This document shows, in pieces, positions 1 through 36,524 of a DNA stretch of 64,000 nt. A model generated the notes under the pieces. The model saw nothing but the letters and a program-made list of their open reading frames with translations. It searched no databases and was not told where the DNA came from. How positions within the stretch are numbered: the stretch's first letter is position 1; the number at the start of each line of letters is the position of its first letter. A program made the position numbers and the translations under genes. The stretch spans positions 375 to 64,374 of the forward strand of contig JALHYA010000010.1 in assembly GCA_022868165.1 (NCBI GenBank). The letters run 5' to 3'. This stretch comes from Patescibacteria group bacterium (GTDB taxonomy: Bacteria > Patescibacteriota > Microgenomatia > UBA8517).

Positions 1-3000
1 GTGCTGACGGTTCCGTACTGGGGAACCCTTTGGAGCATTACTCTCTGGTTCGTAGTTGCGGTTCCCAAGTTGGTATCATCGCTTGCCCCGTTTCCGTAGT
101 ATTTTTTCTTAGCAGTTGTAAAGGTAACCACATTACTTGAGACGGAGTAAATTTTCATAAATTCGTAATTTCCAGTATTTGTACTGTTTGTTGATATTCC
201 TTGTAGGTTACTCATAAGGGCGATGTCTCCCGCGGAAAGACAACCGGTTGCCGGGGTAGAGGAGAGGGTGGCGGTGGTTACCGTATGGCCGTGTATGTTT
301 GTGGTAGTACTAAGAGAGGATATATTGTAGTTGATAGCTTCGGCACAAGTATCACCGGCAGCGGTATTTATAAAGGTATTGAGATTCGTGTTGGTGGTAA
401 AGGTAATATTTCCGTCTCTGCCATCCCCGGTAATTGAGCCTATTGTTAAATACCTTCTTACCCACCCCGTTCCGGGAGTGTTGTTTTGTGCTTTTTGGCT
501 GGTTTCTGTTCCGAATATCCATCCGTCCCCGTCAGCATCCTGTACCCAGAGATTGGTTTCTTTTATCTGCCCTCCGTCTTCAAATCTCCACCAGGCGATG
601 GAGCCGTTTCCGGTGGGGTTGGGTGCATAGTTCATATCTTCGGCAATCTGAGTTACGGAGCGGGCATAGTTGTAGATACGAACATCGTCAAATACTCCTT
701 TTGCATAGGCACCTCCGCACGTTGCCGCTCTTCCAATATTCATGTCACTGGTATTGGTAGGTAAATCCATGTTAAATGAGCCAGGGGTTCCTTCTAATTG
801 GCCGTTTATGTATATATAAACTTTTTGCGCAGCTTTATCATAAACCCCGGCTAGGTGATACCATGTCCCAACCTGGGCCGTAGTGGTTGAAATAGTGCTT
901 GCCCCTTGGCCAGGAGTGTTGGTGGCAACTTGAGAAATGAATCTCTGTGAGCCTTCCACCCCGTTGTCCATATATAAACCCCAAAGGATCCAAGGATCTG
1001 CACAAGGACTAACCTCCTTAGCAATTAATCGAGTCCAGTCACTACCCTTTCCGTTATATTTGAACCATGTTTCAAGAGTCAATGAACCAGTAAGGTTTAG
1101 AGAGGAACTGGCAGGTACGGCTATATAATCACTCGTTCCATTGAAACTTCTGGCTCGAGAGTATTTTCCGGCAACAACTATAGCTCCATTTGCTCTGCCT
1201 TCATTGCTGGTACCTGAATAATCCCTAACATTTCCTCCGCTCCCTTGGGTTAAGTCGTTAATTGCGATTGAACCTCCGGTTTCAATTATTATTGAATAAT
1301 CGTCGTTTCTGACTATTTGCTGGTCTTTTTTAATAGTAAGAGTTTTATATTGTTTTATTGTGATATCACCGTGGTCGGCTCCGTCTATATTGGTTTCCGG
1401 AGATGAAAGAAGGGTATTGGGGAAGTAGCAATTTTCGGTAAGGGCAAAACTTCCTCCAAGAATCGGCTTACAGGAACTCCATGTTGAAGATATATTTGAG
1501 GTTGTTACCGTATAATTTATGGTGATGTCGTCTAATGTGGGAGTTGTTATCCCGTCTCCGGTAAAAACGACTTTGTAGTAGAAGTTTCCTCCCGTCCAAC
1601 CTAGAGGAGCTAGGCTTATGGTGTTATTGTAGCCGGTTGTTAAATTATCAGTTCCACCAACTGCGCCCGATGAGTTATACCAAACAGTTCCGTCGTTGGA
1701 GAAAGCTACCGTTGCCGTCGTGACGCCGGGTAGGGTAGCGAGGTTATATATAAAACTATTGATACTGCTTATATTTTGGATACCAGCGAGAAGGTTCGTC
1801 GAAATTATGGTGGAGGAGGTGAGGTAGGTAAAGTTATTCATATCGGCTTGAATTTCAGCCTGGGTGCGGGCGTAGTTGTAGATGCGAACATCGTCGATTT
1901 GGCCGTTGAAAAATCGACTTGCTGCATTTGGGTCATTCCCGATGATGAGAGTTGCTGTGGTTGAGGTTACAAAATTGCTTCCAGTGGGAGCGGTAGCACC
2001 TACATTTCCATCGACGTAGATTTTTGCAGTCGTACCGTCATAGGTAGCAGCAATGTGATGCCAAGCATTATCTTTTACATTTGTTGAGCTTGCGGGGCTA
2101 ATATATGTAGTGCCATTGTAGAAGTCGGCCCTAACGCCGCCACCAGTATGGATACTCATCTGATAGCCGTTATTTCCACTTACCTTATAAATTATTCCTG
2201 AATAATCATTGGTCGCTGCGGTCTTTATCCAGGCCTCCAACGTAATCGAGCCAGCGATGTTTAAGCTGGTAGACTGAGGTGCTGAAATATAATCGGTTGT
2301 TCCATTAAAACTTCTCGCGTTTACATATTTTCCTGCAACAATATTTGTTGGAGTTGGGTAACGTACAATGACGATGCCGGACCCGCCATCCCCACCCTTG
2401 TTAGTGGCATTATAGTGTGAACCTCCTCCGCCTCCGCCACCCGTATTTGCTCCAGCGTTACCTCCGGGCGTGTTAGTTTGAGCGTTGATAACACCTCCAC
2501 CACCGGGAGAACCATTATTTAAACCGGAACCCCCTGTTGTAGTGCAAACAGCACCACCTCCGCCCCCTCCCGCACCGCCATTTCCTCCACAGCTGGAGTA
2601 ACCACCGCCTCCACCTCCACCGCCCCAGTAGAGACTGGTACCGTTTATTGAGCTTTGAAAACCCGCACCTCCGTTTGCCTGATTATTTCCACTTGCTCCG
2701 ACGGCTCCGGCACCACCTCCACCACCCGAATAATACTGATTTCCTTGATTTCCTCCTGCATATCCTTGTCCGCCAGTTCCGGCTCCTCCAGTTACAGTCC
2801 CTGGGGCTACAGGCTGATTATTGTATCCTGATGCTCCTCCACCAGAACCTCCGGCCGCGCCCGCCGACCCTGGAGTATAGGTATTTGGGGAACTTCCGCC
2901 ACGTCCTCCGCCAACGGCGGTTAGGGTACCAAAGACGGAATCCTGACCATTTGTGGCAGAGAGAATAAATTGGTGGACTGTAGGGTTTCCGTTGGCACTC

Positions 3001-6000: not shown

Positions 6001-6512
6001 TTAATTTGAGTGATGGTTGAGGTAGCCCCAAGGTCAACTTTCCACCAGCCGACCTCACTATTAGTATGGCAAACATTAAGCAGGTCGCCATCGTTACAAA
6101 GATTGGCGCTTAAACCGCTATAAACACTGCTTTGGCTTGATGTTTTATTAAGAGCCAGTAAACTATTCCCTGTAGTTACACTGTTTGCTCCTATTGTGAG
6201 AACATCGTAATTTACTCCGTCTGCATAAGATCTTCCCGCGGCTATTATGTCTGTATTAATATTTTTGTTGGCTGAAATGGTTACCGACTCGTCAGCACCA
6301 TCTCCTGTGTCGAGATTGGCATACTTAAGTTTAAGTTGCCCGTTGGTAAGCTGGTAATTGGAAGAACTTCCGGTATTTATTTTTGAAAAGCCGGCAAACG
6401 AATCAGAAACCGTAGCAGCAAAAACAGGAGTTGGTCCCATACTCAAAGACACGGAAAACATTAAAAGTGCAAGTAGAATGGCTTTTTGAATTTTCTTTAT
6501 TCTTTTTTTCAT
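1..6512 (-). CDS. Giant secreted surface protein, partial. Starts with ATG at 6510-6512 and runs off the left edge with no stop. Signal peptide, discoidin (F5/8 type C)-like domain, Gly-rich repeat region, at least two LamG/concanavalin-A-like domains.
   Basis: Minus-strand frame open from ATG (plus 'cat' ~6510-6512) to position 1. N-term MKKRIKKIQKAILLALLMFSVSLSMG is signal-like. 'VGWWKVDLGATSTITQIKLWNR...YKIQVS' is a discoidin motif. 'FNGQIDDVRIYNYARTQAEI' (RC of ~1890-1960) and 'FDDVRIYNYARS' are LamG motifs. The ORF track omits it only because it lacks a stop in the window. The short ORFs in 1-6500 are antisense or alternate-frame artefacts of the Gly-rich GGN codons. Confidence 0.75.
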   Translation of the reverse strand, partial: MKKRIKKIQKAILLALLMFSVSLSMGPTPVFAATVSDSFAGFSKINTGSSSNYQLTNGQLKLKYANLDTGDGADESVTISANKNINTDIIAAGRSYADGVNYDVLTIGANSVTTGNSLLALNKTSSQSSVYSGLSANLCNDGDLLNVCHTNSEVGWWKVDLGATSTITQIKLWNRFTCCRDRVDNYKIQVSTTGAFAGEQVDVYTAVNTQAGRPTTMDITPTSGKYVRLLMTVSDYLNFTEMEVRGSTDPNGIVAGDEVMLISQQGDGTNNGNVGNYEFLTVQSVSGNTITFTSNVQKIYGATDSNSTLTGQRVTVQRVPNYVDVTVNSGYTLSAGSWNGGKGGILAFRARGAVTVAGTISTSGTAFRGGDTRGIDPKAGGEGGESFCGVGGHGSVDNTYAPENGAAGGGGSGNMWTVGGYGYCGGGGGAGGNAGVIANGSATKGGAGGGGGGVTGTGGGAGHGTFGYGGVCWGSPCTGVDGGTGTSGNGGSDSVYGNGGGGGGGGTYGVANLSNLMLGSGGGAGAYGVSPGIGGRGGGIVYVAADTVSVTGSIQSNGANGTGAQGGGGGSGGSVKLEAAASLTLGTNLVAATGGTASSNGGNGGVGRIATTYVTTTSGSANPAATSNQLTPTYVTSSTVQSTNVLTGLTGIDSIDTISYNLSSKPVGTTTATIQFSQNGTTGWYNSAGTDGTDDLTTGENNTINVHNLGWSGANFYYKIAFTGNGSFTPVLDDISLSYTVTGFTDSSTNGTDPYDNTSKINTGSSSGYQVAGSQVKINTFVPNAGFWKIDETSGVSVADSSGNGNNGTYNATSATGGVITYSGGYTIHTFTSSGRSAFFYSGADQSYTVPAGVTSITVKMWGGGGGGGNLGGWTYGFPGGGGGYTTGTLAVTPDQVLTVMVGAGGGNGSVSNPANSYGGGGLSCGGTDCRYGGQGGGRSAIRYSGVDYLTAGGGGGGGSSRAVNGQQGGAGGGSTGADGISYTQSCAGKGGGQASGGAGGSCATYPGTAGVQPTGGHPASPYSYGGGGGGGWYGGGAGGYQEANDMGGGGGGSGYIGGTGVTNATTTAGSGATPANATDTDNGRSGTGGPAATNGAPGKVIITPVQNVSFTCTSSGNVEVLAVAGGGGGGMDMGGGGGGGGVIYNATYACTANTPITVNVGAGGFGAPAGSANGNPTVHQFILSATNGQDSVFGTLTAVGGGRGGSSPNTYTPGSAGAAGGSGGGASGYNNQPVAPGTVTGGAGTGGQGYAGGNQGNQYYSGGGGGAGAVGASGNNQANGGAGFQSSINGTSLYWGGGGGGGGYSSCGGNGGAGGGGGGAVCTTTGGSGLNNGSPGGGGVINAQTNTPGGNAGANTGGGGGGGSHYNATNKGGDGGSGIVIVRYPTPTNIVAGKYVNARSFNGTTDYISAPQSTSLNIAGSITLEAWIKTAATNDYSGIIYKVSGNNGYQMSIHTGGGVRADFYNGTTYISPASSTNVKDNAWHHIAATYDGTTAKIYVDGNVGATAPTGSNFVTSTTATLIIGNDPNAASRFFNGQIDDVRIYNYARTQAEIQADMNNFTYLTSSTIISTNLLAGIQNISSINSFIYNLATLPGVTTATVAFSNDGTVWYNSSGAVGGTDNLTTGYNNTISLAPLGWTGGNFYYKVVFTGDGITTPTLDDITINYTVTTSNISSTWSSCKPILGGSFALTENCYFPNTLLSSPETNIDGADHGDITIKQYKTLTIKKDQQIVRNDDYSIIIETGGSIAINDLTQGSGGNVRDYSGTSNEGRANGAIVVAGKYSRARSFNGTSDYIAVPASSSLNLTGSLTLETWFKYNGKGSDWTRLIAKEVSPCADPWILWGLYMDNGVEGSQRFISQVATNTPGQGASTISTTTAQVGTWYHLAGVYDKAAQKVYIYINGQLEGTPGSFNMDLPTNTSDMNIGRAATCGGAYAKGVFDDVRIYNYARSVTQIAEDMNYAPNPTGNGSIAWWRFEDGGQIKETNLWVQDADGDGWIFGTETSQKAQNNTPGTGWVRRYLTIGSITGDGRDGNITFTTNTNLNTFINTAAGDTCAEAINYNISSLSTTTNIHGHTVTTATLSSTPATGCLSAGDIALMSNLQGISTNSTNTGNYEFMKIYSVSSNVVTFTTAKKKYYGNGASDDTNLGTATTNQRVMLQRVPQYGTVS

Positions 6513-7042
6513 CTTAAGGTGACTGTTGCGCTTTGAACGAGATTTTGTTCGTTTTTGACCTTCACCGTTACTCTGTAAATGTAGTTATACGAGTTTTCTA
6601 CTTTCCAAGTTCCTTTCCATTCCCCGTCGGTAGGAGTCCCGGATGATAATTGCAGGGGATAGGTGGTATCTTTGTAGTCGTCCGTGTGAAGAACAACTTC
6701 GACTCCCTTAATAGGACTTGTGTAGTTTGCCTTGACGATTATGGATTGGTTTGAACCCACTTCTGGATCTTCCGGGTCAAGTATCACCTCTGAAATTGTC
6801 GGAAGGCCTTGTACTCCTCCGCTAGTCCTATATAGCTGGGTTCCGTGGCCGATCGGGGGTGGGGTAGTGGTATAGGCGGACCAGATATTTTGTATAGGAG
6901 TTGGCGTGGGAAAGAGATTGGCGAGCTTGCCCGTGCGTAGCATATAGAAATAGACGCCCCCCAAAACCGCGGCGATAATGGCAACGATGATGAATATCCA
7001 GAAAATTAAAGGCGGCCGCTTTGTAGGCAGGTTGTTGTCCAT
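6509..7042 (-). CDS. Membrane-anchored protein: N-terminal TM helix plus an extracytoplasmic beta-rich domain.
   Basis: 177-aa ORF. Hydrophobic segment LIFWIFIIVAIIAAVLGGVYFYML. Its TGA stop overlaps the downstream ATG (ATGA), giving translational coupling to the partial giant gene. Confidence 0.6.
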   Translation of the reverse strand: MDNNLPTKRPPLIFWIFIIVAIIAAVLGGVYFYMLRTGKLANLFPTPTPIQNIWSAYTTTPPPIGHGTQLYRTSGGVQGLPTISEVILDPEDPEVGSNQSIIVKANYTSPIKGVEVVLHTDDYKDTTYPLQLSSGTPTDGEWKGTWKVENSYNYIYRVTVKVKNEQNLVQSATVTLR

Positions 7043-7112
7043 AACAAATTTAGTCCTCTTAAGGGCTGTTAATCTATTAAAGATAGTATGGGGGAGGAAG
7101 TCAAGCTCATTT

Positions 7113-7572
7113 TTAATCTACAAATCCGACAAATCTGCAAATCTACAAATCAATTGCAAATGTTAGAATTAATAAATGAATAAATATTCAAATACGGATA
7201 AAGATATTCACGCACGAATTTATAAATTTACAATAGAATGCTTTTGGGAAGTGGTAAGAAAGATTCCCAAATCTACAGAAAATATTCCGATTATAAGCCA
7301 GGTTTCTTCTTCTTTGACCTCTATCGGAGCTAATGATCAAGAGGCCGATGCTGCAAACTCGAAGAAGGATTTTATTGCAAAATATATGATTGTTAAGAAA
7401 GAAACTAAGGAGACTAAATATTGGCTTAGCTTTATTAAAGATTCTGCTCTAATTAAAGAGAATATTATTCAGCCCCACATAGACGAATGCCAGGAAATTC
7501 TTCTAATAGTAAGTAAAATTATCGAAAATACGAGGCGCTAATTTCACCATTAAACCATTTATTTGTAGATTA
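7113..7572. repeat. Cassette of about 460 bp bounded by perfect 12-bp inverted repeats, TAATCTACAAAT (7113-7124, plus a second direct copy ~7139-7150) and ATTTGTAGATTA (7561-7572). It encloses the four-helix-bundle gene.
   Basis: Direct reading of the sequence. The right repeat overlaps the arsR stop codon. Confidence 0.45.
7176..7541 (+). CDS. Four-helix-bundle protein (TIGR02436 family, formerly '23S rRNA intervening-sequence protein').
   Basis: 121 aa. 'SSLTSIGANDQEADAANSKKDFIAKYMIVKKETKETKYWLSFIKDSALI' matches the family core (SIGANIAEG...SKKDFI...ETEYWL). It is the only plus-strand gene inside a minus-strand operon. Confidence 0.7.
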   Translation: MNKYSNTDKDIHARIYKFTIECFWEVVRKIPKSTENIPIISQVSSSLTSIGANDQEADAANSKKDFIAKYMIVKKETKETKYWLSFIKDSALIKENIIQPHIDECQEILLIVSKIIENTRR

Positions 7573-7869
7573 GATGATGCCTTTAGCTCTGAGAGCTTCA
7601 ATAACATTGCAAGGTTCAACAATTCCGGGGTCAATGCATTTGTAAAATATCTTTTGGCCCTCTCGTCTGTGAGTAACAAGCTTGTTTAGCCTAAGGAGAG
7701 CCAGATGTTGTGAGAGATTGGCCTTGCGGATTCCTACTTCTTTTGCAATATCGTCAACCGAGCGCTCGCGGTCCTTAATACAATTCAGTACTTCCAACCG
7801 TTTGCCATTGGAAAGCACCTTATATATATCCGCATACATTTCATACATCTGTTTCGTCTGTTTGGTCAT
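7570..7869 (-). CDS. ArsR/SmtB-family transcriptional regulator. Likely start is the internal Met; the track ORF extends to 7908.
   Basis: 'GKRLEVLNCIKDRERSVDDIAKEVGIRKANLSQHLALLRLNKLVTHRREGQKIFY' is the winged-HTH ArsR signature. Confidence 0.7.
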   Translation of the reverse strand: MTKQTKQMYEMYADIYKVLSNGKRLEVLNCIKDRERSVDDIAKEVGIRKANLSQHLALLRLNKLVTHRREGQKIFYKCIDPGIVEPCNVIEALRAKGII

Positions 7870-7968
7870 TTGAAACCATATTAAAGAACTGCAAGAAAGC
7901 CGTGTCAAGTGGTATTTTAGCTTCGAGCTTATATTATTAGAAATTTTTGGGGTACGATGAAATTTCGG

Positions 7969-10900: not shown

Positions 10901-13900
10901 TCTTTCCATTCAAGCCCGGAAAGTCCTAAATCCGTTACGTCGGTAGTAGAGGGGGTAACTGAACCCCCGGAAAGGGCATTAAGAGGATTTAGGATGATAT
11001 TTCCGGTTGTACTGCCTCCAATAGTCAAGTCATTCATAAGAGTGCCCTGAATGCTTCTGGCGCCGCCATAGAAGGTCAGGTTGCCCGATACGGTGGCATT
11101 GCCTGCAACAGCAAGTTTTTCTACCGGAGAAGTTGTCCCGATGCCGACGCCGCCGCTTTGATTGATATTTAATATGTCATCTGTACCGTAATGACCGAGA
11201 GATAAATTGTTTAGGTAAGCTGTGGCATTAGGAGTATAGGCCATATAACCTGCGGAATTGGCAGCAATAGATTTACCAATCCATTGCGTTAGTCGATTAC
11301 CATTAGCAAGGGCAGTTTCAAAGACACCCATCGCTCGATGGTTGACATCAGTTGAAACTACAACTAATGGATTTCCCGGCGTCGCCGTCCCGATGCCGAC
11401 GTTGCCGGCGTTGGTGATGACGAATCTTGGAGTTCCGGCTGCTGAGGCCGTAAAGATATCTTGGGATTCGGTCTGGTTAAATATGGCCAGGGCTTTGCCG
11501 GTTGCCGAATAATCGTTTGTGACATAAAGCCTTGAGGTGGCAGCGGTAACGGTGGTTGAGCCGATTCCTACATAACCCGAAGCGTTAACATACATATCTT
11601 CACCGTCATTACCCTCGTCAAAAATAATCGTTTCGCCGGACCCCAAAGTCACAAATTTCAGGTTTACCGTGCTTGGAGTCATGATGGATAGCGTGGGGCT
11701 GGTGTAATCGTAGGTGAGACGGGTAGTGCCGTCAAAGGAAATGTGAGTTTGATTAGCAGAGCCTATCGTGAATCCGAAACAGTCGGCACCACCTGAACGG
11801 GTTGAGTTCCCACAGATATATTTAATGCCATCGGTAGCATAGGCAGAAAGAACCTCAATCATATCAGTATATGTTTCTCTCTCAACACTTACAGAAAATT
11901 CTCCGGCGGTATCCGCTCCGGCAGTTACATTTCTTAAGATAAAGCCTGCTCTTCCGGCCTCAACCAAACTGCTCGCATTATCCTCAAGGTAGGATGATGT
12001 GTAAGAACCGATGTTGGTGGCCGCAGTACCGCCGCTTGTGGAGCGAGTAATTCTGGCAAGCTCTATCTGTGTATTTGTTGAGGCATCGTCTTTTACGATA
12101 TGGAAACCCGCAAGCGGGGAGGCCGTACCAATACCCACACGGTTGTTAAGCGCATCAATCGAAAGGGTATTGGAATCGAAGTTAAGGGCATTGGCAGCAT
12201 TATTCAGGGTTACTCCTACTATTTGGGTAGAAAGGTCAATGGTGGCAGCGTTGATGTCAACAATACCGCTGCCGTTAAGGGGAGAAAGAGTGATATTTCC
12301 GGTCGATGTACCTCCTATGGTCAGATTTGCCATATTGGTTGTAGCCAGATTTCCTTCTCCAGTTAGGTAGGTAGCCACATTGGCAGTAGTGCCCGAAATA
12401 GATGCTGTTGGAGAATTTGTGGAGTCAACATTCATAAATGCGAACTTGGCCGTGTCGGTGGCCGTTCCGCCGATTAGTACATCAACAGTAGAATTCATTG
12501 GGTAGAGGATTCCATTTGCATCATCCTGCGTCCAGAAACTGCTGCCGCCTCCGCCTGTTCCGCAAGCTCCCCAGCTACCGGCTTGTTTACAACGCATTTC
12601 GCCTGAATCGGAGTTGTAATACATTGCACCATCGGGTGCGGAAACAGGGTCACCGGCAGTATTTTTTATATCTAAGGCTAAAAGGTCAGGAGTCCCCGAG
12701 CCCGCACCGTTTCCTATTTGAATAAGACCTGTTGTTGAGGTACCGAACGCTTGAAGGTAAATATTGCCTGTATCAACTCCTCCTAAAGTGAGGCTTTGGT
12801 TGGCGGTTGTTGCGAGATTGCCATCAGCGGTAAGAAAGGTTGCACCGGCCGCTCCCGCCGAAACAGAAGCGGTTGGAGTCCCTGTGCCCACCATATTTAT
12901 AAATGCAAATTTTGCGGAATCGGTCGAAGTCCCCCCCAATAAGACATCAACCGTCGAATTTTTGGGATACAGAATTCCATTTACATCGTCTTGATTCCAA
13001 AGATCGGTTGCGCCCCCGAGACAATTTCCTGAAGTGTCGCAAACCTGATTGTTGCTTTGGTAGATTGTCTTTCCCCAGATATTCCTGAATTCCAAGGACG
13101 CGGATGTGCCCAAATCGGTAACATCAGTTGTATTTGGCTTGACAGCTCCACCGGCTATGGCATTGAGCGGATTGACAACTATATCTCCGGTTGTATCTCC
13201 GCCGATAGTTAGAATAGCCATTAGAGTTGCCCGAATATTTCTTGCGCCTCCGTAGAAAGTCAGGTTGCCCGAAACAGTGGCATTGCCGGCCACATCCAGC
13301 TTTTCTACGGGAGACGTCGTTCCCACGCCTACGTTTCCACCAGGCATAAGAGCCAGGTTCTGCGAAGCCGCGGTAATTATTTGATTCGGCCCTGTGCCGG
13401 CGAAGGTAATTCCGGCTCCAATTCCAGTTAGATTTATGGCGGCAGTATTTGCATAGGAGTTTGTAAGTTGGTTGCTCATTGAGAGCGTTGTCACGCCCGA
13501 TACCGCCCCGGCTGTAGTGACATTTAGAGCAGTCGAGGTTACGGCAAATGTTCCCGTTGCGTTGCCAATGGTAGTTGTGGCTCCGGCGCCGGAAGATAGA
13601 GTGGTATTACCACTAGAGTCTAGGGTAGTGAAAGCGCCCGTCGAGCGAATAGTTGCTCCGATTGCGGTTGAGTTAATGCCCGTAGCTGTTGTATTAAAGT
13701 TGCCGGCAGTAAAGAGGATATCGTTTGCTCCAAAGGAAACGGATGAGGCTCCCAATCCGGATAGAGTCAGAGCTCCAGACGTTCCGGTTAAGTTCAAAGC
13801 TCCGGTAGTTAACGTCAGGCCGTTACTGGCTGTAAGGGTGCTAGAGAACCTTCCTGTTCCAGTAACATCCAGTTGAGTGCTGGGTGCAGCGTTATTTATG

Positions 13901-16900
13901 CCGACTTGGCCGGCACTGTCAATATATATCCTACTGGTAAGAAATGAATCACCACCGACGGAGCCTTGGACATTAAAGCTACCACCGTTGTAGATATTCA
14001 AGAATGTTTGCGGAGCAGTTGTGGTGGTCTCGGCTCCAAGTGCAATATTGCCCGAGATTGAAGCAGTGGGATTGCCGGAATCGACATTTATAAATGCGAA
14101 CTTGGCCGTGTCGGTGGCAGTTCCGCCTATTAATACATCAACAGTTGAATTTTTGGGATACAAGATTCCCAGGGAATCATTTTGATTCCAATATCCTGTT
14201 GAAGCATTACAGTTTCCGCTTGCATCACAGACGGCATTACCACTTTGAAGCATTGCCTGGGCATAAAAATTGCGCCATTCTAGAGAGGCTGTTCCGAGGT
14301 CGGTTACATCTGTAGCTCCGGGTGTAACCGAACCACCGTCTACGGCATTTAAAGGATTAATTGTGATGTTTCCGGTTGTATCGCCCCCGATAGTTAAGTC
14401 ATTCATAAGAGTGCCCTGAATGCTTCTGGCGCCACCATAGAAGGTTAGATTGCCGGAAACGGTGGCATTTCCGGCTACATCAAGCATCTCCAGGGGAGTA
14501 GTAGTCCCAATTCCCAAGTTTCCGCTTGCGTCAATTCTGGCTTTTTCCGAAGAGGAGATATAAAACCGTATTGTGCCTCCTTGCACTAGGGTTCTTCCAG
14601 CTGAATCACCAAATGTTTGAATTCCTTGTTCGTTGGCGCTTATGCCATTTTGGCTGGACCAAACCAGCGCCTCGACTGTGCTTCCGGGATCGGTGACGTA
14701 CCCGGTGACCCAAGCAGGATCGTTGGGATCGGACGAAAGCGTTCCGATATTCCCATTTCCTGAAGAATCGGAGGTAGAAGTCCCTGTTCCCTCATCGAAA
14801 TGCCAAAGGGCTTTTGTATTGGCATCCGGAGAAAGTTTGGTTGTTTGAGGGGTAAAATTGGCGGTGTTACGAACAACGTTGGACATCTCAATCTCGTCAA
14901 TTTTCCCGTCAAAGTTGTCTTGAGGTGGCCAGTCACCGCCGTCCAGTCCGATTCGCATAAGTCCGTTAAAATAACTCGGCGTGCCAGGATCCCCTTGGAA
15001 CGGTTGGGATTCTATATTTCCATTGATAGCGAAATAAATGGTGTTTGTACCTGTATCTCTTGATACTTGGACGTGGGTCCATGTTCCTAAAGAAACTGTT
15101 CCCGTAGAGTTCATGAATCCAGCGGCATCCGACCAGAACCCAAAAGCTAGTTGACGGGAGGGGTTGATTCCAAAGTACCACTTTCTGGCGTAATCTGTTC
15201 CTTTCTTGTCGATTATGACTCGTGTAGATGCCGCGGTGGTGTCCAAATAAACCCAAGCTCTGATCGTCCAATCACTACCCATAAGGCGGTTAGTGGCGGA
15301 ATCGGGAACTGTAACTCCATCGTCCCCATCAAACTCTAGCGCATAGGGGTCGGACCCGGGTTTTGAAACCAGATTATACCGTGCTGCGTTGTTTGATGTT
15401 GTGGTTCTTGTAACTCTTGTGTATAGGCCGTCTCCGGAGGTAGTTAGCCTTATTTCTGGAGTTACCTTGGAAATTTCTAAATCAGATGCTGGGGCAGAAG
15501 TACCTATACCCACCCTAGAATTGGTGGTATCAAAAGTTGCAAATGCAGAGCCTGAATTATTAAGCACGCTTACATTTCCAGTAGTAGTTCCACCCAAAGA
15601 AAGAGTCTGTTTGGCTGTTGTGGCCAAGGTTCCATCAGCGGATAGATAAGTTGCGCCTGCAGCACCCGCAGAAATAGAAGCTGTGGGTGTACCTGAACCA
15701 ATTACATTTATAAATGCGAACTTGGCTGTGTCTGTGGCCGTTCCTCCGATAAGTACGTCCACAGTTGAGTTTTTGGGGTATATTGTTCCGTTTGTCTGGT
15801 TCCAAACATCATTTGCCCCAGCAAAACAGTTACCACTGACATCACAAACCTGATTACTGTTTTGATATAGCGTCTGGCCGTAAACGTTTCTCCAAGCAAG
15901 ACTCGAAATGCCCAGGTCGGTTACATCGGTTGCGCCGGGGGTAACCGAGCCTTCTGCGACGCCATTAAGAGGCGAAAGGATAATGCCTCCTGTAGAATCT
16001 CCTCCGATTGTTAAATTTCGATTGAGCGTGGTTTGAATTACTCCTGCACTATTAAGAGTTAGATTGCCTGCTATTGATGCAGTGGGTGTGCCAGAATCAA
16101 CATTGATAAACGCGAATTTGGCGGAAGAGGAAGAGGTGCCGCCTATCAACAAATCAACGGTAGAATTTTTAGGATTTAGAACCCCGTTTGCCTGGCCCCA
16201 CCAGTTTATTGCTGTAGCCGCAGTTGCAAAAGCCTGCCAAATTGTTCCATCCGAGAAATAAACCTGATTATCTGTTGAATTATATATAACCGAGCCTGTG
16301 CCGATAGCAGTTGGCAGAGCAACAAATCTTCCCAGCCTAATTTGGTCATTAAAAATTGCTGTTCCGTTTTTAACATATAAAGCTGCGCCTTCCCTTGGAG
16401 CGTTATAGCGGTTTAAGGTGAGGGTTGAGTATGTAGACATTGGTTTGTCGCGCTCATCAAGTGTCAAAGTTAATAGGTCGGCCAGAGCCGAACCGGTTTG
16501 AGTAATTGAGGCGAAATTGCCAGGACTTTGGGTTATTGTAAAATTTCCCGAAGTCTGGCTATAGCCTGTGACGTTGGAAAGTGCGCCGCCGGATGAGAGT
16601 CTTTGAGTTCCTCCCGTTGAAAGATTCCCGCCGATACCCGTATTGCCGAGCGCATCAACACTAAAACGGGTGATTGGTTGTGAGCCGCTTTGAAGCCTTA
16701 TGAGGTCATAACCAGTTGCTCCGTTAGCCACAATGCCATAAAAAAGCGAGCCGGAAGTCAAATTGGGTGCCTGGGCATTTAGGAAATTTTGGCCTGTGCC
16801 TTCAAAAAGAAAATGTGCATATCCGAAACCGTCTGGATTAATTTCAATATTTCCGTCCGAGCCGGTCGGAGTAGAAAGAGTCACTGTTTGGCCTTCAACC

Positions 16901-17745
16901 AAAAGATTTCCCTGTTTGGCGCGAATTGCGGGGGCCTGTGATGCCAAAAGAAGAGAACCGTCGTCGGCAATTACGGGAATTGTGCCCGGACCTGCCCCGA
17001 TTTCCGGGTTGGCGGGAGTGTAGCCTTGGAGATTGGAAGCGGAATTGGCGCTTGAAACCGGAATCCTGTCCTTGATTTCGGTTCCTCCTATGGTTGCGCC
17101 AAGATAAAGCTTATCGTTTCCGAAAAATACATTAGTTGGAACACTATCTAAAGCTATCGTAATATCACCATTTGTATCAGGAGTTTCTTGTTTTGTACCC
17201 GAAGTCCAGAGTGCGGTAGGGTCGTCGGGAGATTTATAAAGTTTGAAAGTTATGCTTTGGGCTCCAAGCGAGGCCGAACCGCTTGCGTCTTTGAGTGTCA
17301 TTTTGGCAAAAATTGTCCAGGGAGAAAGAAGTGTGGAAGTCGATGGTGCTTCGGACGTAGAGCCAGTTGTGGGTTGGCCGGGGCCACCGGTAGGCTGGGG
17401 AAGCTGAGTTACTCTGTTTTCGCTTGCGGGTGTAAACAGGAAGGGTATCGGAAGCTGAAGTTTTCGGGCAAGAAGAAACATAAGAACCAGTGATAAGGCC
17501 AATACGCCAAAACCGATGATTGTTTTTACTCCAGGCTTGCGGCGTTTGGGAGGTTCGAACGCTTCGCTTAAAGGTTGTGTTTGAACTAAGGGATTTTCTT
17601 TTATATGCCCCTTGTTGTGTGCCCAGCCGAAAAATTTATTCAGGCTGGCCATCTTGCGCTTGGCCGTAGTAAAACTTGTAGTTTTTGCAAGCTGGCCTTG
17701 ATATTGGGCTATTAAATCCGGTGATATGTAGGGTAGGTTAGGCAT
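7969..17745 (-). CDS. Giant (3258 aa) membrane-anchored surface protein. Short cytoplasmic N-terminus resembling the second half of an integrase SAM-like domain, one TM helix, a Thr/Pro/Gly-rich stalk, a LamG-like domain, at least five 330-aa repeats and a tail-fibre-like C-terminal region.
   Basis: Single uninterrupted ORF. TM TIIGFGVLALSLVLMFLLARKL. LamG-like 'WTIRAWVYLD...IYFAINGN'. Repeat unit 'NLTIGGDTTGNI..NPLN...VTPG.TDVTDLG.S.L.WRN.Y.Q.....N.VCD.SGNC....YPKNSTVDVLIGGTATDTAKFAFINV' recurs. Matching DNA repeats (ttataaatgcgaacttggc...) lie near 10695, 12430, 12895, 14085, 15705 and 16095. Confidence 0.85.
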   Translation of the reverse strand: MPNLPYISPDLIAQYQGQLAKTTSFTTAKRKMASLNKFFGWAHNKGHIKENPLVQTQPLSEAFEPPKRRKPGVKTIIGFGVLALSLVLMFLLARKLQLPIPFLFTPASENRVTQLPQPTGGPGQPTTGSTSEAPSTSTLLSPWTIFAKMTLKDASGSASLGAQSITFKLYKSPDDPTALWTSGTKQETPDTNGDITIALDSVPTNVFFGNDKLYLGATIGGTEIKDRIPVSSANSASNLQGYTPANPEIGAGPGTIPVIADDGSLLLASQAPAIRAKQGNLLVEGQTVTLSTPTGSDGNIEINPDGFGYAHFLFEGTGQNFLNAQAPNLTSGSLFYGIVANGATGYDLIRLQSGSQPITRFSVDALGNTGIGGNLSTGGTQRLSSGGALSNVTGYSQTSGNFTITQSPGNFASITQTGSALADLLTLTLDERDKPMSTYSTLTLNRYNAPREGAALYVKNGTAIFNDQIRLGRFVALPTAIGTGSVIYNSTDNQVYFSDGTIWQAFATAATAINWWGQANGVLNPKNSTVDLLIGGTSSSSAKFAFINVDSGTPTASIAGNLTLNSAGVIQTTLNRNLTIGGDSTGGIILSPLNGVAEGSVTPGATDVTDLGISSLAWRNVYGQTLYQNSNQVCDVSGNCFAGANDVWNQTNGTIYPKNSTVDVLIGGTATDTAKFAFINVIGSGTPTASISAGAAGATYLSADGTLATTAKQTLSLGGTTTGNVSVLNNSGSAFATFDTTNSRVGIGTSAPASDLEISKVTPEIRLTTSGDGLYTRVTRTTTSNNAARYNLVSKPGSDPYALEFDGDDGVTVPDSATNRLMGSDWTIRAWVYLDTTAASTRVIIDKKGTDYARKWYFGINPSRQLAFGFWSDAAGFMNSTGTVSLGTWTHVQVSRDTGTNTIYFAINGNIESQPFQGDPGTPSYFNGLMRIGLDGGDWPPQDNFDGKIDEIEMSNVVRNTANFTPQTTKLSPDANTKALWHFDEGTGTSTSDSSGNGNIGTLSSDPNDPAWVTGYVTDPGSTVEALVWSSQNGISANEQGIQTFGDSAGRTLVQGGTIRFYISSSEKARIDASGNLGIGTTTPLEMLDVAGNATVSGNLTFYGGARSIQGTLMNDLTIGGDTTGNITINPLNAVDGGSVTPGATDVTDLGTASLEWRNFYAQAMLQSGNAVCDASGNCNASTGYWNQNDSLGILYPKNSTVDVLIGGTATDTAKFAFINVDSGNPTASISGNIALGAETTTTAPQTFLNIYNGGSFNVQGSVGGDSFLTSRIYIDSAGQVGINNAAPSTQLDVTGTGRFSSTLTASNGLTLTTGALNLTGTSGALTLSGLGASSVSFGANDILFTAGNFNTTATGINSTAIGATIRSTGAFTTLDSSGNTTLSSGAGATTTIGNATGTFAVTSTALNVTTAGAVSGVTTLSMSNQLTNSYANTAAINLTGIGAGITFAGTGPNQIITAASQNLALMPGGNVGVGTTSPVEKLDVAGNATVSGNLTFYGGARNIRATLMAILTIGGDTTGDIVVNPLNAIAGGAVKPNTTDVTDLGTSASLEFRNIWGKTIYQSNNQVCDTSGNCLGGATDLWNQDDVNGILYPKNSTVDVLLGGTSTDSAKFAFINMVGTGTPTASVSAGAAGATFLTADGNLATTANQSLTLGGVDTGNIYLQAFGTSTTGLIQIGNGAGSGTPDLLALDIKNTAGDPVSAPDGAMYYNSDSGEMRCKQAGSWGACGTGGGGSSFWTQDDANGILYPMNSTVDVLIGGTATDTAKFAFMNVDSTNSPTASISGTTANVATYLTGEGNLATTNMANLTIGGTSTGNITLSPLNGSGIVDINAATIDLSTQIVGVTLNNAANALNFDSNTLSIDALNNRVGIGTASPLAGFHIVKDDASTNTQIELARITRSTSGGTAATNIGSYTSSYLEDNASSLVEAGRAGFILRNVTAGADTAGEFSVSVERETYTDMIEVLSAYATDGIKYICGNSTRSGGADCFGFTIGSANQTHISFDGTTRLTYDYTSPTLSIMTPSTVNLKFVTLGSGETIIFDEGNDGEDMYVNASGYVGIGSTTVTAATSRLYVTNDYSATGKALAIFNQTESQDIFTASAAGTPRFVITNAGNVGIGTATPGNPLVVVSTDVNHRAMGVFETALANGNRLTQWIGKSIAANSAGYMAYTPNATAYLNNLSLGHYGTDDILNINQSGGVGIGTTSPVEKLAVAGNATVSGNLTFYGGARSIQGTLMNDLTIGGSTTGNIILNPLNALSGGSVTPSTTDVTDLGLSGLEWKEIHGQLIYQGANQVCDTSGAGCTTSGLWAEGTAPTNGGVIYPKNLTEDVLIGGNSTDSAKFAFINVDLASPPTASISAGAAGATYLTADGNLATTANQSLTLGGLTTGNIFLESFGADTGHIQIGDGAGSSNPDLLALDIKNDAGDPAGTAGAVYYNSSGTPKFRCYQGGSWVDCISAGAATGWTLSNPFIYTTNADYQVGIGTTTTADIISKLYVTNDGALTGKALAIFNQPESQDILTASASSVTKMVVSKAGDLTATGFLQIGAAWTPGTIPATSQAYSRFGSAIPDHFGGSTTDWVIFSGDTEFRGTLFLDSADGVGGGISQIADNTGTGTIIFPANEKTTPHELTAGNWMVTNPINTGNVGQAALIVDQQAGGDIFTASFSGSTKFTIANNGNITATGSGTMLTIGGGTGKVDIGTIDPVYNIGGTRYATYLSGMTGVKEETTGNVSTDEFVPGVGYRHSIDFKDAQNGSDLWLFSKTTNLKNNMGKMVVLLSPAGNTRAWYDVDTRNYLLSIYTARPTTVSYRLTAPRFDYTTWTNLNDNPSATGFDIKDENLTVNPNGDVKPPVIPSLADFEIVSQQAYGIQNIVYSIWTKAGQIIDELGAFGNLIAGNILAGAIQVQEVTSNLLTANKIISPLADIDTVRTRLISPLPDQTDVAVQIGGAGTDSGQLVIQNASGSAVASVDTAGNASFSGQVTSDKLQVTSSASIAGTLYADDIKSTTLDDIQNLLHQVEQDQNLLAQAATWNANTATGSSAIANIQNLFVTDQAAINSLSVSTSISVGTDLVFQSQNTQYGILNTVNSLSAPLSLQSLAMAPVEIMAGKVKVLTNGDVQIEGNLYVAGVVESSGLTVRSINNPVAASIDASGSATFNSVSADKFILAVQAATASADINGTITTNATAGQAIINAGVSEITIKNPSISDYTLVYVTPTSSTLNNVLYVKSKGAGYFTVGFSNPINVDVTFNWWVIDVKQ

Positions 17746-18251: not shown

Positions 18252-18839
18252 TTTGAGGCTAAATTATACTCGTTATACGAGTTATACCATTATTAAAGCG
18301 ATTTAGAAGCTTGTCAAGGAGCGTTTAATAGGCTAAACACAAATATACGTCTAAGTACTTTTCACTGACATCAATAGCGTATTTTCCGCATATCAAATTG
18401 CCTTAGACAATATATCAAAACATATATAAATTGATATCCGATAGTTAGGTTTTCCCGCGATATTTATATAACTCCCTGTGCCTATATATTTTACTGCGGA
18501 AATATGCGGGAATTATATATATTTGAGTTTCGATGAGGAAATAGTACCGTTTTGGGCTCAATCCGATAGCATAAAGGGGTTTTTTATGGTCGATTACTGT
18601 TTTGGCAAACCTTTCGTCCGAGTGCTATGAATTATTGTCTAATATTTTGCCCCGAATTCTTGATGATTATCGGACTTTTATTTCTTTTGTTTTTTTACTT
18701 TGTTTGTGAAGCTATTCTGTGTGAAATTCTAATTCCAATCGCAATTGCCGTCTCAATATAGCCAATAATTTCTAAAATCGCCTAGATTTATTATAATTCT
18801 TATGCGAGAATTCTGTATAATTCTCTGTATAATTCTATT

Positions 18840-36521: not shown

Positions 36522-36524
36522 TAA

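What the first reader, a model, noticed from the sequence alone, without database searches (positions are those of the whole stretch)
1..17745. Two consecutive giant secreted proteins, over 2100 aa (partial) and 3258 aa, in one minus-strand operon with modular lectin-like architecture.
The partial ORF (1-6512) carries a signal peptide, a discoidin/F5-8-C domain (WWKVDLG...IQVS), extensive GGxGGxGG glycine tracts and repeated LamG modules. The LamG modules end in the diagnostic 'F(N/D)G.IDDVRIYNYAR' motif. The 3258-aa protein has a LamG-like domain plus at least five repeats of about 330 aa. The repeats share a conserved Cys pair (CDxSGNC) and a 'YPKNSTVDVLIGGTATDTAKFAFINV' block, also visible as near-identical DNA repeats of 40-60 nt. 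Its C-terminal region is tail-fibre-like. Such giant adhesin or fibre proteins are typical of episymbiotic CPR cells and are candidates for host attachment. The DNA-level repeats make the locus prone to recombinational length variation.
Basis: partly seen in the sequence, partly recalled or inferred. Interest (0 to 1): 0.55.

Follow-up and report, generated by a model that had tools for sequence, protein, structure and literature searches.

The report
Membrane-anchored tail-fibre-like giant surface proteins
Two giant surface-protein genes of an uncultivated ultrasmall (Patescibacteria) bacterium are real; the larger belongs to a big unnamed family of membrane-anchored fibres resembling phage tail fibres, with a DNA-binding-type domain on the inside of the cell, and is a reasonable candidate for attachment to other cells.

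Summary
Both giant ORFs exist as described: a partial ORF of 2170 codons and a complete 3258-aa ORF. Several details are wrong. The DNA repeats are not near-identical; the longest exact match is 38 nt. The repeat is a ~215-aa module in 4 full and 2 partial copies at irregular spacing. The two genes are 1.46 kb apart, with an opposite-strand gene between them. P2 has no signal peptide.

P2 belongs to a large family, and every named member is from Patescibacteria or Microgenomates. Its conserved C-terminal profile finds 2646 representatives, 700-5657 aa long. The architecture is a cytoplasmic half of an integrase-type SAM-like domain, one TM helix, a conserved base, a shuffled variable shaft and a conserved ~400-aa C-terminus. 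The shaft carries LamG and beta-helix segments homologous to Bdellovibrio MAT fibres. The C-terminus ends in a tailspike-like beta-sandwich.

The upstream 167-aa "integrase" supplies the missing half of the SAM-like domain, and the two genes are fused in some genomes. The gene pair sits next to leuS-comEA-comEC in all nine loci examined, so it is chromosomal and not a prophage.

P1 is a Sec-exported mosaic of an F-type lectin, glycine-rich domains and LamG domains. Adhesion to a host is inferred, not shown.

The parts
17748..18251 (-). 167-aa cytoplasmic protein. It has one complete integrase-type SAM-like (core-binding) domain at aa 12-100 and the first half of a second at aa 126-165. It has no recombinase catalytic domain. 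NCBI names it 'site-specific integrase'.
   Evidence: Pfam hits. NCBIfam XerC/D models match only their first ~95 positions, at about 50 bits against cut-offs of about 330. A homologous gene of 162-173 aa precedes the fibre gene in all 8 related loci.
7969..17745 (-). P2: 3258-aa membrane-anchored fibre-like protein (NCBI MCJ7805610.1, 'LamG domain-containing protein').
   Evidence: ORF. Exact match in NCBI. Family homologs.
17566..17745 (-). P2 aa 1-60: the second half of a SAM-like domain. It is completed by the C-terminus of the upstream 167-aa protein.
   Evidence: Alone it matches Phage_int_SAM_1 profile positions 43-82 of 83 (E 0.021). Joining the two ORFs in silico gives a full-length match at aa 127-212 (profile 1-82 of 83), and the score rises from 54.8 to 70.9 bits. 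Natural fusions exist: P0317, P0353 and P0373.
17458..17523 (-). P2 aa ~75-96: single TM helix (IIGFGVLALSLVLMFLLARKL), preceded by the basic stretch PPKRRKPGVK. The N-terminus is inferred to be cytoplasmic.
   Evidence: Hydropathy maximum of 2.58 at aa 75. Sequence. Orientation follows the positive-inside rule and is an inference.
16216..17328 (-). P2 aa ~140-510: conserved extracellular base region of the family.
   Evidence: 44-54% identity over aa 1-~510 to ten homologs. Alignment A4 has 63% mean column identity. A profile of it finds no relative of solved structure.
15472..16080 (-). Repeat module copy 1 (aa 556-758), preceded by a partial copy at aa 480-559 (16069-16308).
14863..15330 (-). 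P2 LamG / concanavalin-A-like lectin domain (aa 806-961).
   Evidence: Pfam Laminin_G_3, E 4.5e-19, 69.5 bits against a cut-off of 27.6.
13864..14523 (-). Repeat module copy 2 (aa 1075-1294).
12241..13338 (-). Repeat module copy 3 (aa 1470-1690) and a partial copy (aa 1727-1835).
   Evidence: The AF2 monomer model of copy 3 has low confidence (pLDDT 58.9).
10492..11553 (-). A segment homologous to the MAT-fibre beta-helix (aa 2065-2260, with GNVGIGTTxP motifs) that runs into repeat module copy 4 (aa 2198-2418).
   Evidence: phmmer against PDB: 8OND Bd2133 at E 1.2e-8 and 8OL4 Bd2439 at E 8.8e-5. Module coordinates.
7972..9168 (-). Conserved ~400-aa C-terminal region (aa 2860-3258) that defines the family. 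Its last 80 aa (7972-8211) form a beta-sandwich. A further domain at aa 2729-2814 (9304-9561) is conserved in only some members.
   Evidence: Profile A1 finds 2646 representatives at E<=1e-3, and in every one of the 150 best hits listed the match ends at or close to the protein's C-terminus. AF2 is confident only for aa 2729-2814 and 3179-3258. The fold matches tailspike C-terminal domains.
7570..7908 (-). ArsR/HTH_5-type small regulator ORF downstream of P2. The probable start is at 7848, giving 92 aa.
   Evidence: Pfam HTH_5, E 3e-8. The Logan gene call is 92 aa.
7176..7541 (+). Opposite-strand gene of the 23S_rRNA_IVP family. It is not part of the system, but it interrupts the supposed operon.
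   Evidence: Pfam PF05635, 57.3 bits against a cut-off of 33.8.
6509..7042 (-). 177-aa protein with an N-terminal TM helix and a C-terminal ~110-aa domain. Its stop overlaps the P1 start (ATGA). It is conserved next to the fibre gene in relatives.
   Evidence: 35-39% identical to the 196-aa protein of L004 and to the 198-aa and 194-aa proteins of L003, which follow the fibre gene there. No Pfam or NCBIfam hit.
1..6512 (-). P1 (partial; the C-terminus lies beyond the window). Signal peptide aa 1-32 (6417-6512). F-type lectin aa 125-252 (5757-6140). Gly-rich solenoid-like unit aa 253-625 (4638-5756). Beta-sandwich aa 633-749 (4266-4616), repeated at aa 1562-1677 (1482-1829). Glycine-rich domains aa 838-1391 (2340-4001). 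LamG aa 1403-1555 (1848-2306) and aa 1789-1961 (630-1148). A second Gly-rich unit starts at aa 2092 (3-239).
   Evidence: A 2012-aa ortholog occupies the same position in L004, 46% identical over 618 aa.
18252..18839 (-). 588-nt leuS/SAM-gene intergenic region. It holds a conserved TTGACA box, three GTATAA(C/T) boxes just before the start codon, and three TTYCCGCA sites: two in tandem 10 nt apart and one inverted about 112 nt away.
   Evidence: Alignment of 7 loci. Three of the window's 13 TTYCCGCA sites lie at 18383-18512, and L003 and L004 show the same arrangement.

Best explanation
P2 is a member of a large, so far unnamed family of cell-surface fibres in Patescibacteria (Microgenomates-type).

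SHOWN. The protein begins with ~70 cytoplasmic residues that form only the second half of an integrase-type SAM-like (core-binding) four-helix domain. The first half is the C-terminus of the 167-aa protein encoded 2 nt upstream. One TM helix follows. Then come a conserved ~370-aa base, a ~2350-aa shaft and a conserved ~400-aa C-terminus ending in a tailspike-like beta-sandwich. The shaft is built from shuffled cassettes: a ~215-aa Cys-pair module in 4 full and 2 partial copies, one LamG lectin domain, and GNVGIGT-type beta-helix segments homologous to Bdellovibrio MAT fibres. Other family members keep both ends and replace or resize the shaft, so total length runs from 761 to 5657 aa.

INFERRED. 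The chain is exported through Sec as a signal-anchored protein. It trimerises from the conserved C-terminal region, as phage fibres and MAT fibres do. It then stands on the cell as a fibre on the order of 100 nm long, scaling from Bd2133 (370 aa, about 145 A). It would display LamG and other binding modules to bind glycans on a partner cell or surface. The small SAM-like protein would dock on the cytoplasmic stub by completing the split domain.

P1 is a separate, Sec-exported giant mosaic of an F-type fucose-lectin-like domain, glycine-rich domains and two LamG domains. It is co-transcribed with a 177-aa TM protein and is likely a second glycan-binding surface component of the same conserved locus.
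For: Family and architecture. 28 homologs share the N-terminus (aa 1-~510) and C-terminus (aa ~2860-3258) but not the middle. The shortest, P0020 (761 aa), is essentially N-terminus plus S74 plus C-terminus. Profile A1 finds 2646, 1640 and 799 representatives at E<=1e-3, 1e-10 and 1e-30; in the 150 best hits listed the match ends at or close to the protein's C-terminus. 75 of 171 retrieved members start with the SAM-like motif followed by a TM helix, and most of the rest are N-terminally truncated fragments.

Split domain.; fused natural versions.

Fibre nature. Homology to Bd2133 and Bd2439, whose crystal structures are trimeric beta-helix fibres (PMC10769870). The homologs P0020, P0010 and P0006 carry Peptidase_S74, the trimer-specific intramolecular chaperone, directly before the conserved C-terminus. 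The C-terminal beta-sandwich is closest to phage tailspike C-termini. Both AF2 monomer models are extended and of low confidence outside small domains, as expected for chains that fold only as oligomers.

Chromosomal core gene. The order comEC-comEA-leuS, then divergently SAM gene and fibre gene, holds in the window and in 8 other loci, down to ~30% N-terminal identity.

Lectin content..

P1 ortholog and the 177-aa partner occupy the same position in L004.

Taxonomy..

Context from the literature. Lectin-like surface proteins are essential for epibiotic growth of a cultured Saccharibacterium (PMC10633639).
Against: No experiment or expression data exist for any member.

Trimerisation is not shown. 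The two structure predictions were monomeric and mostly of low confidence (mean pLDDT 49.7 and 58.9).

The distal C-terminus is conserved rather than variable. That fits an assembly or anchoring role better than a host-specific receptor-binding tip.

P2 itself lacks Peptidase_S74.

P2's own N-terminus hits SAM-like models only weakly (E 0.01-0.02). The assignment rests on its homologs, on the in-silico join and on natural fusions.

Microgenomates have no cultured representative here, and an epibiotic lifestyle is not established for this lineage.

The centre of the repeat array has no independent assembly support.
Confidence: 0.6

Rival explanations
1. The fibre is mainly a structural or self-directed envelope component rather than a host adhesin. 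It could be a spacer, or a tether for the S-layer or cell wall. In that case the conserved C-terminus would bind a conserved element of the cell's own envelope, and the shaft would vary under phage or grazer pressure.
For: Both termini are conserved across thousands of representatives and only the middle varies. There is one syntenic copy, next to housekeeping genes, in every locus examined. The C-terminal beta-sandwich also resembles generic carbohydrate- and collagen-binding sandwiches.
Against: The shaft carries lectin-type (LamG) and MAT-like modules typical of binding to foreign surfaces. Shuffling of cassettes and lengths of 761-5657 aa are hard to reconcile with a spacer of fixed geometry.
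Confidence: 0.2
2. The fibre is a trans-envelope signalling or DNA-linked device. The cytoplasmic head is a DNA-binding-type domain: a SAM-like core-binding domain, or in paralogous members one or two excisionase-type HTH_17/MerR domains. The protein would then couple surface contact to DNA binding, as ToxR does, or to DNA handling near the adjacent comEA-comEC genes.
For: Two unrelated families of DNA-binding fold occupy the same cytoplasmic position in front of the TM helix in proteins that share the C-terminal domain. Linkage to leuS-comEA-comEC is invariant in 9 loci. Conserved TTYCCGCA repeats lie in the upstream intergenic region.
Against: No DNA binding has been shown. Core-binding domains on their own bind DNA weakly. 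The synteny may simply be inherited gene order. No release mechanism or partner is evident.
Confidence: 0.1
3. P2 is a prophage or phage-derived virion tail fibre. One Woesebacteria homolog is annotated 'Virion structural protein'.
For: Tail-fibre and tailspike-like features. Peptidase_S74 in homologs. The source name of P0014.
Against: The protein has an N-terminal TM anchor and a cytoplasmic domain. It has no PHROG hit except a weak integrase-N match. Its neighbours are leuS, comEA, comEC, argS, ndk and mreB, with no phage genes. The chromosomal position is identical in 9 divergent genomes.
Confidence: 0.04
4. The giant ORFs are assembly artefacts, either collapsed or chimeric repeat arrays.
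For: The independent short-read assembly breaks inside P2 module 4 and inside the P1 glycine-rich region. This shows that the repeats hamper assembly.
Against: That assembly is 100% identical over 7.3 kb spanning both gene ends. The repeat copies are only 61-81% identical at the DNA level and share at most 38 nt exactly, so they are too divergent to collapse. The reading frames stay open over 9.8 and 6.5 kb. Dozens of relatives of 2-5.6 kaa have the same ends.
Confidence: 0.05

Closest known systems
Bdellovibrio bacteriovorus MAT (mosaic adhesive trimer) fibres, e.g. Bd2133 (PDB 8OND) and Bd2439 (8OL4); Caulton et al. 2024, PMC10769870
   Same: P2 aa 2065-2260 is homologous in sequence to the GNVGIGT-type beta-helix shaft (E 1e-8 and 9e-5). 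Both are cell-encoded (not viral), phage-tail-fibre-like and chimeric in construction. Both families have S74 and non-S74 variants. Both carry lectin-type binding modules and belong to small bacteria that live on other cells.
   Different: MATs are ~1000 aa. They have a conserved soluble N-terminal domain presumed to bind the predator surface, and a variable C-terminal tip. P2 is 3258 aa, is anchored by a TM helix with a cytoplasmic split SAM-like domain, has a conserved C-terminus, and varies in the middle. The organism is a monoderm Patescibacterium.
Phage tail fibres and tailspikes with a C-terminal intramolecular chaperone (Peptidase_S74; endosialidase type) and a C-terminal beta-sandwich (K1 lyase, Pam1, LKA1 gp49 tailspikes)
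   Different: P2 has no S74 domain, no phage context, no virion-attachment N-terminus, and a membrane anchor instead.
ToxR/CadC-type bitopic regulators (cytoplasmic DNA-binding domain, TM helix, external domain)
   Same: The topology is the same: an N-terminal DNA-binding-type fold, one TM helix and a large external part.
   Different: The head is a split tyrosine-recombinase core-binding domain (or a Xis-type HTH in paralogs) rather than an OmpR-type winged helix. The external part is a 3000-aa fibre. A regulatory function is untested.
F-type lectins (eel agglutinin AAA 1K12, FBP32 3CQO, Streptococcus Sm-hPAF 3LE0 and SpGH98 fucolectin modules) and LamG/ConA-like lectin modules of giant bacterial adhesins
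   Same: P1 aa 125-252 aligns with these lectins at E 1e-18 to 2e-5, with the fucose-binding His and both Arg residues in register. Both giants have LamG domains above the Pfam gathering score.
   Different: The Asp of the HX24RXDX4R motif is Thr in P1. Sugar specificity is unknown. The lectins sit in a far larger mosaic with glycine-rich domains.

Membership tests
Bdellovibrio MAT fibre superfamily | Sequence or structural homology to the trimeric beta-helix fibre region | tested here: met
   P2 aa 2065-2260 against 8OND Bd2133 (E 1.2e-8) and 8OL4 Bd2439 (E 8.8e-5).
Bdellovibrio MAT fibre superfamily | Invariant MAT N-terminal domain (soluble; proximal to the predator surface) | not testable with these tools
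   No MAT N-terminal sequence or structure was available. P2's N-terminus is a SAM-like half-domain plus a TM helix, which is not described for MATs.
Bdellovibrio MAT fibre superfamily | Variable, exchangeable C-terminal tip domain | tested here: not met
   P2's C-terminal ~400 aa are the most conserved part of the family (2646 representatives). Variation lies in the middle.
Bdellovibrio MAT fibre superfamily | Trimeric assembly | not testable with these tools
   Only monomer AF2 was available, and both models are extended and of low confidence.
S74-type phage tail fibre / tailspike | Peptidase_S74 intramolecular chaperone domain with the autocleavage Ser-Lys site | tested here: not met
   P2 has no PF13884 hit, even at E<=1 in the C-terminal 443 aa. 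It is present in the homologs P0020, P0010 and P0006 and in a paralog in L003.
S74-type phage tail fibre / tailspike | Phage or prophage genomic context | tested here: not met
   The neighbours are housekeeping genes, and synteny is conserved in 9 loci.
LamG / concanavalin-A-like lectin domain (Pfam Laminin_G_3) | Pfam score above the gathering threshold | tested here: met
   P1: 198.5 bits over two stretches. P2: 69.5 bits. The cut-off is 27.6.
F-type lectin (fucolectin) domain | F5/8-C fold match plus the His...Arg...Arg fucose-binding triad | tested here: met
   F5_F8_type_C at 42.5 bits and F5_F8_type_C_2 at 60.2 bits, both above their cut-offs. FBP32 matches at E 1e-18 and AAA at 8e-8. 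H (CHTNSE) and both R (NRFTCCRDR) align with H52, R79 and R86 of AAA, but the motif Asp is Thr (residue numbering from my own knowledge).
F-type lectin (fucolectin) domain | Fucose binding | not testable with these tools
   Requires a glycan array or ITC.
Tyrosine recombinase / 'site-specific integrase' (NCBI name of the 167-aa ORF) | C-terminal catalytic domain with the RHRY active site | tested here: not met
   Only SAM-like N-terminal domains are present. XerC/D models are matched over positions ~3-96 of 290-295, at 45-51 bits against cut-offs of 330-335.
Glycine-rich domain (Pfam Gly_rich_2, PF21722) | Pfam score above the gathering threshold | tested here: met
   P1 aa 1108-1341, 34 bits against a cut-off of 24.3. 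Also phrog_2295 at E 1e-40 and phrog_1589 at E 8e-19.
Classical giant adhesins (RTX/T1SS Bap-like, trimeric autotransporters, LPXTG-anchored) | Family-specific domains such as a T1SS signal with RTX repeats, a YadA anchor or a sortase motif | tested here: not met
   No such Pfam or NCBIfam domains were found in either protein.

The most novel reading that the evidence does not exclude
This would be an undescribed class of trans-envelope fibre in Patescibacteria. A phage-fibre-like surface filament would be physically coupled, through one TM helix, to a cytoplasmic DNA-binding-type head. That head is a tyrosine-recombinase core-binding domain reconstituted from two polypeptides, or Xis-type HTH domains in paralogs. 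Contact at the fibre would then be communicated to DNA, as gene regulation at the conserved TTYCCGCA sites or as a link to DNA uptake with the invariably adjacent comEA-comEC genes.
Probability: 0.12. Interest if true: 0.85.

Novelty: new variant of a known kind. Interest (0 to 1): 0.6.

Why it matters
How ultrasmall Patescibacteria recognise and hold on to partner cells is largely unknown outside a few cultured Saccharibacteria. This locus points to a very large family of surface fibres (at least 2600 clusters at 50% identity) that sits in the core genome. The family has a constant anchor and a constant end, with a cassette-shuffled middle of up to ~5000 aa. It is related in part to the prey-recognition fibres of Bdellovibrio and to phage receptor-binding proteins. 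That gives a concrete, widely distributed candidate for attachment and specificity, and a sequence profile to find it. The split integrase-type domain shared between the fibre's cytoplasmic stub and a small partner protein is unusual and easily testable. It also shows that the current annotations 'site-specific integrase' and 'LamG domain-containing protein' are misleading.

Tried and rejected
SEARCHES THAT FAILED OR FOUND NOTHING.
- The full-length P2 homolog search timed out; a 1200-aa query worked.
- The source NCBI contig (103 kb) could not be retrieved to finish P1. Look-ups by LeuRS and by P2 found no record. The 177-aa protein led only to a 7.3-kb Logan contig. P1's C-terminus is therefore unknown. 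By analogy with the 2012-aa L004 ortholog, about 300 aa may be missing.
- PDB profile searches with the C-terminal region (A1), the repeat module (A2) and the N-terminal base (A4) found nothing, apart from the GNVGIGT motif hit for the module.
- BLASTP of the P2 N-terminus against the 167-aa protein gave no alignment, so the halves are not simple duplicates.
- Rfam finds only tRNAs in the window.
- No terminator-like sites were found between the genes.
- The literature searches found no paper describing this family or linking MAT fibres to Patescibacteria. The library lacks most subscription journals.

INCONCLUSIVE.
- AF2 of the repeat module gave no usable fold (pLDDT 58.9). 'Beta-helix versus Ig-like' is unresolved. 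The only conclusion is that the module does not behave as a self-contained globular domain in a monomer prediction.

HYPOTHESES REJECTED.
- Programmed frameshift fusing the 167-aa ORF to P2. The junction is TAG-CC-ATG, with a stop in the P2 frame 9 nt upstream and no slippery heptamer. In relatives the junction varies from a 17-nt overlap to a 127-nt gap.
- Alternative genetic code. Long ORFs are read with table 11 throughout.
- Prophage origin and assembly artefact: see the rival explanations.

CAVEAT. The only genome-contig hit, L001, is titled 'uncultured Gammaproteobacteria bacterium'. It has the Patescibacteria-type synteny, so I treat that title as unreliable.
Full report
GENE LAYOUT. 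On the minus strand the window holds, in order of transcription:
- a 167-aa ORF (17748-18251);
- the 3258-aa ORF P2 (7969-17745);
- an ArsR-type HTH ORF (7570-7908);
- a 177-aa ORF (6509-7042);
- a giant ORF, P1, open from 6512 to the window edge (2170 codons, no stop).

Between the ArsR ORF and the 177-aa ORF lies a plus-strand gene of the 23S_rRNA_IVP family (7176-7541; 57 bits against a cut-off of 33.8). P1 and P2 are therefore on the same strand but not adjacent, and not in one uninterrupted operon. In the relative L004 the fibre gene, a 196-aa gene and a 2012-aa giant gene are contiguous. The interruption here looks secondary.

CHECK OF THE OBSERVATION. The domain calls hold:
- P1 has an F5/8-C domain (aa 125-233), Gly_rich_2 (aa 1108-1341) and two Laminin_G_3 domains.
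- P2 has one Laminin_G_3 domain (aa 806-961).
- The 'YPKNSTVDVLIGG..AKFAFINV' block occurs six times and 'CDxSG' four times.
- All 14 cysteines of P2 form seven local pairs.

The repeat description does not hold. Self-comparison gives four full copies of a ~205-220-aa module (53-66% identical) plus two partial copies, at irregular spacing. At the DNA level the copies are 61-81% identical, and the longest exact repeats are 38, 29 and 23 nt. That is poor substrate for homologous recombination in this genome. The homologous gene in L001, by contrast, carries exact intragenic repeats of 436, 388 and 185 nt, so cassette duplication is active in the family.

An independent Logan assembly of SRR19116065 is 100% identical to window 3758-11056. 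It ends inside P2 module 4 and inside the P1 glycine-rich region.

ORGANISM AND CONTEXT. The neighbouring LeuRS is 100% identical to an NCBI 'Patescibacteria group bacterium' protein on a 103-kb contig. The next named hits are Amesbacteria and Woesebacteria at 55-58% identity. P2 is MCJ7805610.1 ('LamG domain-containing protein'), the 167-aa ORF is MCJ7805611.1 ('site-specific integrase') and the 177-aa ORF is MCJ7805607.1. The surrounding genes are housekeeping: leuS, comEA, a split comEC, argS, an M16 peptidase, ndk, mreB, uppS, L1 and tRNAs.

P2 BELONGS TO A LARGE FAMILY WITH CONSTANT ENDS AND A VARIABLE MIDDLE. Searching with the first 1200 aa returned 28 proteins. Every one that carries an organism name is from Patescibacteria, Woesebacteria or Blackburnbacteria. 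They align with P2 at aa 1-~510 and aa ~2860-3258 but not in between. The shortest (P0020, 761 aa) is little more than the two ends.

A profile of the C-terminal region (A1) found 2646 representatives at E<=1e-3, 1640 at 1e-10 and 799 at 1e-30 among 1.84 billion cluster representatives. In the 150 best hits listed, the match ends at or close to the protein's C-terminus, and lengths reach 5657 aa. Members with names are 'Candidatus Microgenomates bacterium' or 'Patescibacteria group bacterium'.

The ~215-aa module recurs in 26 of the family proteins retrieved here, at 1-11 copies each. It is a shuffled cassette, not something peculiar to this gene.

THE CYTOPLASMIC HEAD IS A SPLIT DOMAIN. P2 has no signal peptide. 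A TM helix lies at aa ~75-96, preceded by a basic stretch. Full-length relatives start with the same ~60-aa motif and then a TM helix: 75 of the 171 sequences retrieved do so, and most of the others are N-terminal fragments.

In homologs this motif matches Pfam Phage_int_SAM_1, but only profile positions ~38-83. The upstream 167-aa protein has one complete SAM-like domain (aa 12-100) and then only the first half of a second (aa 126-165; profile 1-41 of 85). Joining the two ORFs in silico yields a full-length Phage_int_SAM_1 match across the junction (aa 127-212; profile 1-82 of 83), and the score rises from 54.8 to 70.9 bits.

Three family representatives (P0317, P0353, P0373) are natural fusions with the complete domain.

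The split is not an error or a frameshift site. The junction is TAG-CC-ATG with no slippery sequence. In relatives the two genes are separated by anything from a 17-nt overlap to a 127-nt gap. The 167-aa protein has no recombinase catalytic domain, so 'integrase' is a misannotation.

A second class of proteins carries one or two MerR/HTH_17 (excisionase-type) domains in front of the TM helix instead of the SAM-like motif, yet shares the same C-terminal region (examples beside the fibre locus).

FIBRE CHARACTER. P2 aa 2065-2260 is homologous to the beta-helix shaft of the Bdellovibrio MAT fibres Bd2133 (E 1.2e-8) and Bd2439 (E 8.8e-5). These are trimeric, phage-fibre-like prey-recognition proteins (PMC10769870). 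Three homologs carry Peptidase_S74 immediately before the conserved C-terminal region. P2 does not.

AF2 on aa 2690-3258 with 13 sequences gave mean pLDDT 49.7. Confidence was good only for aa ~2729-2814 and the last ~80 residues. The model's best matches were:
- phage tailspike and depolymerase C-terminal regions in the PDB by Foldseek (E 2e-3 to 0.1 over 70-90 columns);
- 51 hits at E<=1e-3 in BFVD, mostly Caudovirales proteins that are unnamed or annotated as tail fibre, tail protein or K1-lyase C-terminal domain.

The repeat module modelled poorly (pLDDT 58.9, almost no secondary structure). That is compatible with a segment that folds only in an oligomer, but it does not settle beta-helix versus Ig-like. 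The N-terminal base and the C-terminal region have no relatives of solved structure by sequence. P2 matches no NCBIfam model.

CONSERVED LOCUS. The same order holds in the window and in eight other loci (L001, L003, L004, L005/L006, L007, L008, L009), including members only ~30% identical at the N-terminus. The order is (comEC)-comEA-leuS on one strand and, divergently, the small SAM-like gene followed by the fibre gene. This is a chromosomal core locus, not a prophage.

Homologs of the 177-aa TM protein follow the fibre gene in L003 and L004. In L004 a 2012-aa protein orthologous to P1 comes next, 46% identical over 618 aa.

The 460-680-nt intergenic region upstream of the SAM-like gene has three conserved features:
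- an invariant TTGACA box;
- three GTATAA(C/T) boxes;
- in the closest relatives, two tandem TTYCCGCA sites and one inverted site.

P1. It has a Sec-type leader (by inspection). Its F5/8-C domain is specifically F-type-lectin-like: FBP32 at E 1e-18, eel agglutinin at 8e-8, and the Streptococcus fucolectin modules. The His and both Arg residues are aligned, and the motif Asp is replaced by Thr.

The glycine-rich parts (30-35% Gly) match Gly_rich_2 and two phage protein families of unknown function, phrog_2295 (E 1e-40) and phrog_1589 (E 8e-19). Similar modules occur in many phyla.

A ~115-aa beta-sandwich-like unit and the LamG domain are each duplicated. The sequence at the window edge restarts the first glycine-rich unit, so the protein continues beyond the window.

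INTERPRETATION. Shown: the architecture, the family, the split domain, the synteny and the partial homology to MAT and phage fibres. Inferred: trimeric assembly nucleated at the conserved C-terminus, a surface location, a length on the order of 100 nm (scaled from Bd2133) and glycan-mediated adhesion.

The conserved distal end argues that specificity, if any, lies in the shaft cassettes and the LamG domain rather than in a tip. A self-directed envelope role remains a serious rival. The DNA-binding-type cytoplasmic heads are unexplained, and they are the most novel aspect.

I found no paper describing this family. The general idea that lectin-like surface proteins are needed for the epibiotic growth of Patescibacteria has experimental support in Saccharibacteria (PMC10633639; PMC11665869).

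Noticed in passing
window 18252-18839; L003 7216-7345; L004 7215-7343: The long leuS/SAM-gene intergenic region carries an invariant TTGACA box, three GTATAA(C/T) boxes spaced 9-10 nt apart just before the start codon, and a cluster of TTYCCGCA sites. Two sites are in tandem 10 nt apart and one is inverted about 112 nt away. The arrangement is conserved in L003 and L004. It looks like an operator; the binding protein is unknown (candidates: the ArsR-type ORF or the SAM-like protein).
   Followed up: partly
L003 1-1780; L006 18368-19483; L007 1-2866: Other large fibre-type genes lie near the locus in relatives. They start with MerR/HTH_17 (excisionase-type) domains. One ends with Peptidase_S74 and then a distant version of the same terminal '...F(D/N)WWII' beta-sandwich. 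Genomes therefore carry several paralogs with different cytoplasmic heads.
   Followed up: partly
L001 (CAZOVJ010000001.1, 484.8-kb contig): The record title says 'uncultured Gammaproteobacteria bacterium', but the locus has the Patescibacteria-type leuS-comEA-comEC / SAM gene / fibre gene synteny and a 2593-aa family member. The taxonomic label is probably wrong.
   Followed up: partly
L001 11583-13937: The homologous fibre gene contains exact internal DNA duplications of 436, 388 and 185 nt. These are recent cassette duplications, or possibly an assembly artefact in that MAG.
   Followed up: no
window 7176-7541 (+): A 23S_rRNA_IVP-family (four-helix bundle) gene sits on the opposite strand between the two giant genes. 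A paralogous gene appears in L005 and L006 at 17102-17440.
   Followed up: no
window 21929-23616 (+): ComEC is encoded as two overlapping ORFs: the Competence domain at 21929-22798 and the metallo-beta-lactamase domain at 22747-23616. The same split is seen in L003, L004, L005, L008 and L009, so it appears to be a lineage feature rather than an error.
   Followed up: partly
window 2001-6000: GC content rises locally to 0.50-0.54 with strongly negative GC skew. This is explained by the dense GGN glycine codons of P1 on the minus strand. It is not a sign of foreign DNA.
   Followed up: partly
window 34345-37451 (+): A cluster of a 7TM_transglut protein, an ATPgrasp_ST protein and a RimK-like ATP-grasp protein.
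   Followed up: no
window 37914-39737 (+), 44293-45648 (+): Two sizeable ORFs (607 and 451 aa) have no Pfam match at E<=0.01.
   Followed up: no
window 56198-58375 (-): A 725-aa ORF whose only Pfam hit at E<=1e-5 is the 18-residue SEC-C motif at its very C-terminus.
   Followed up: no
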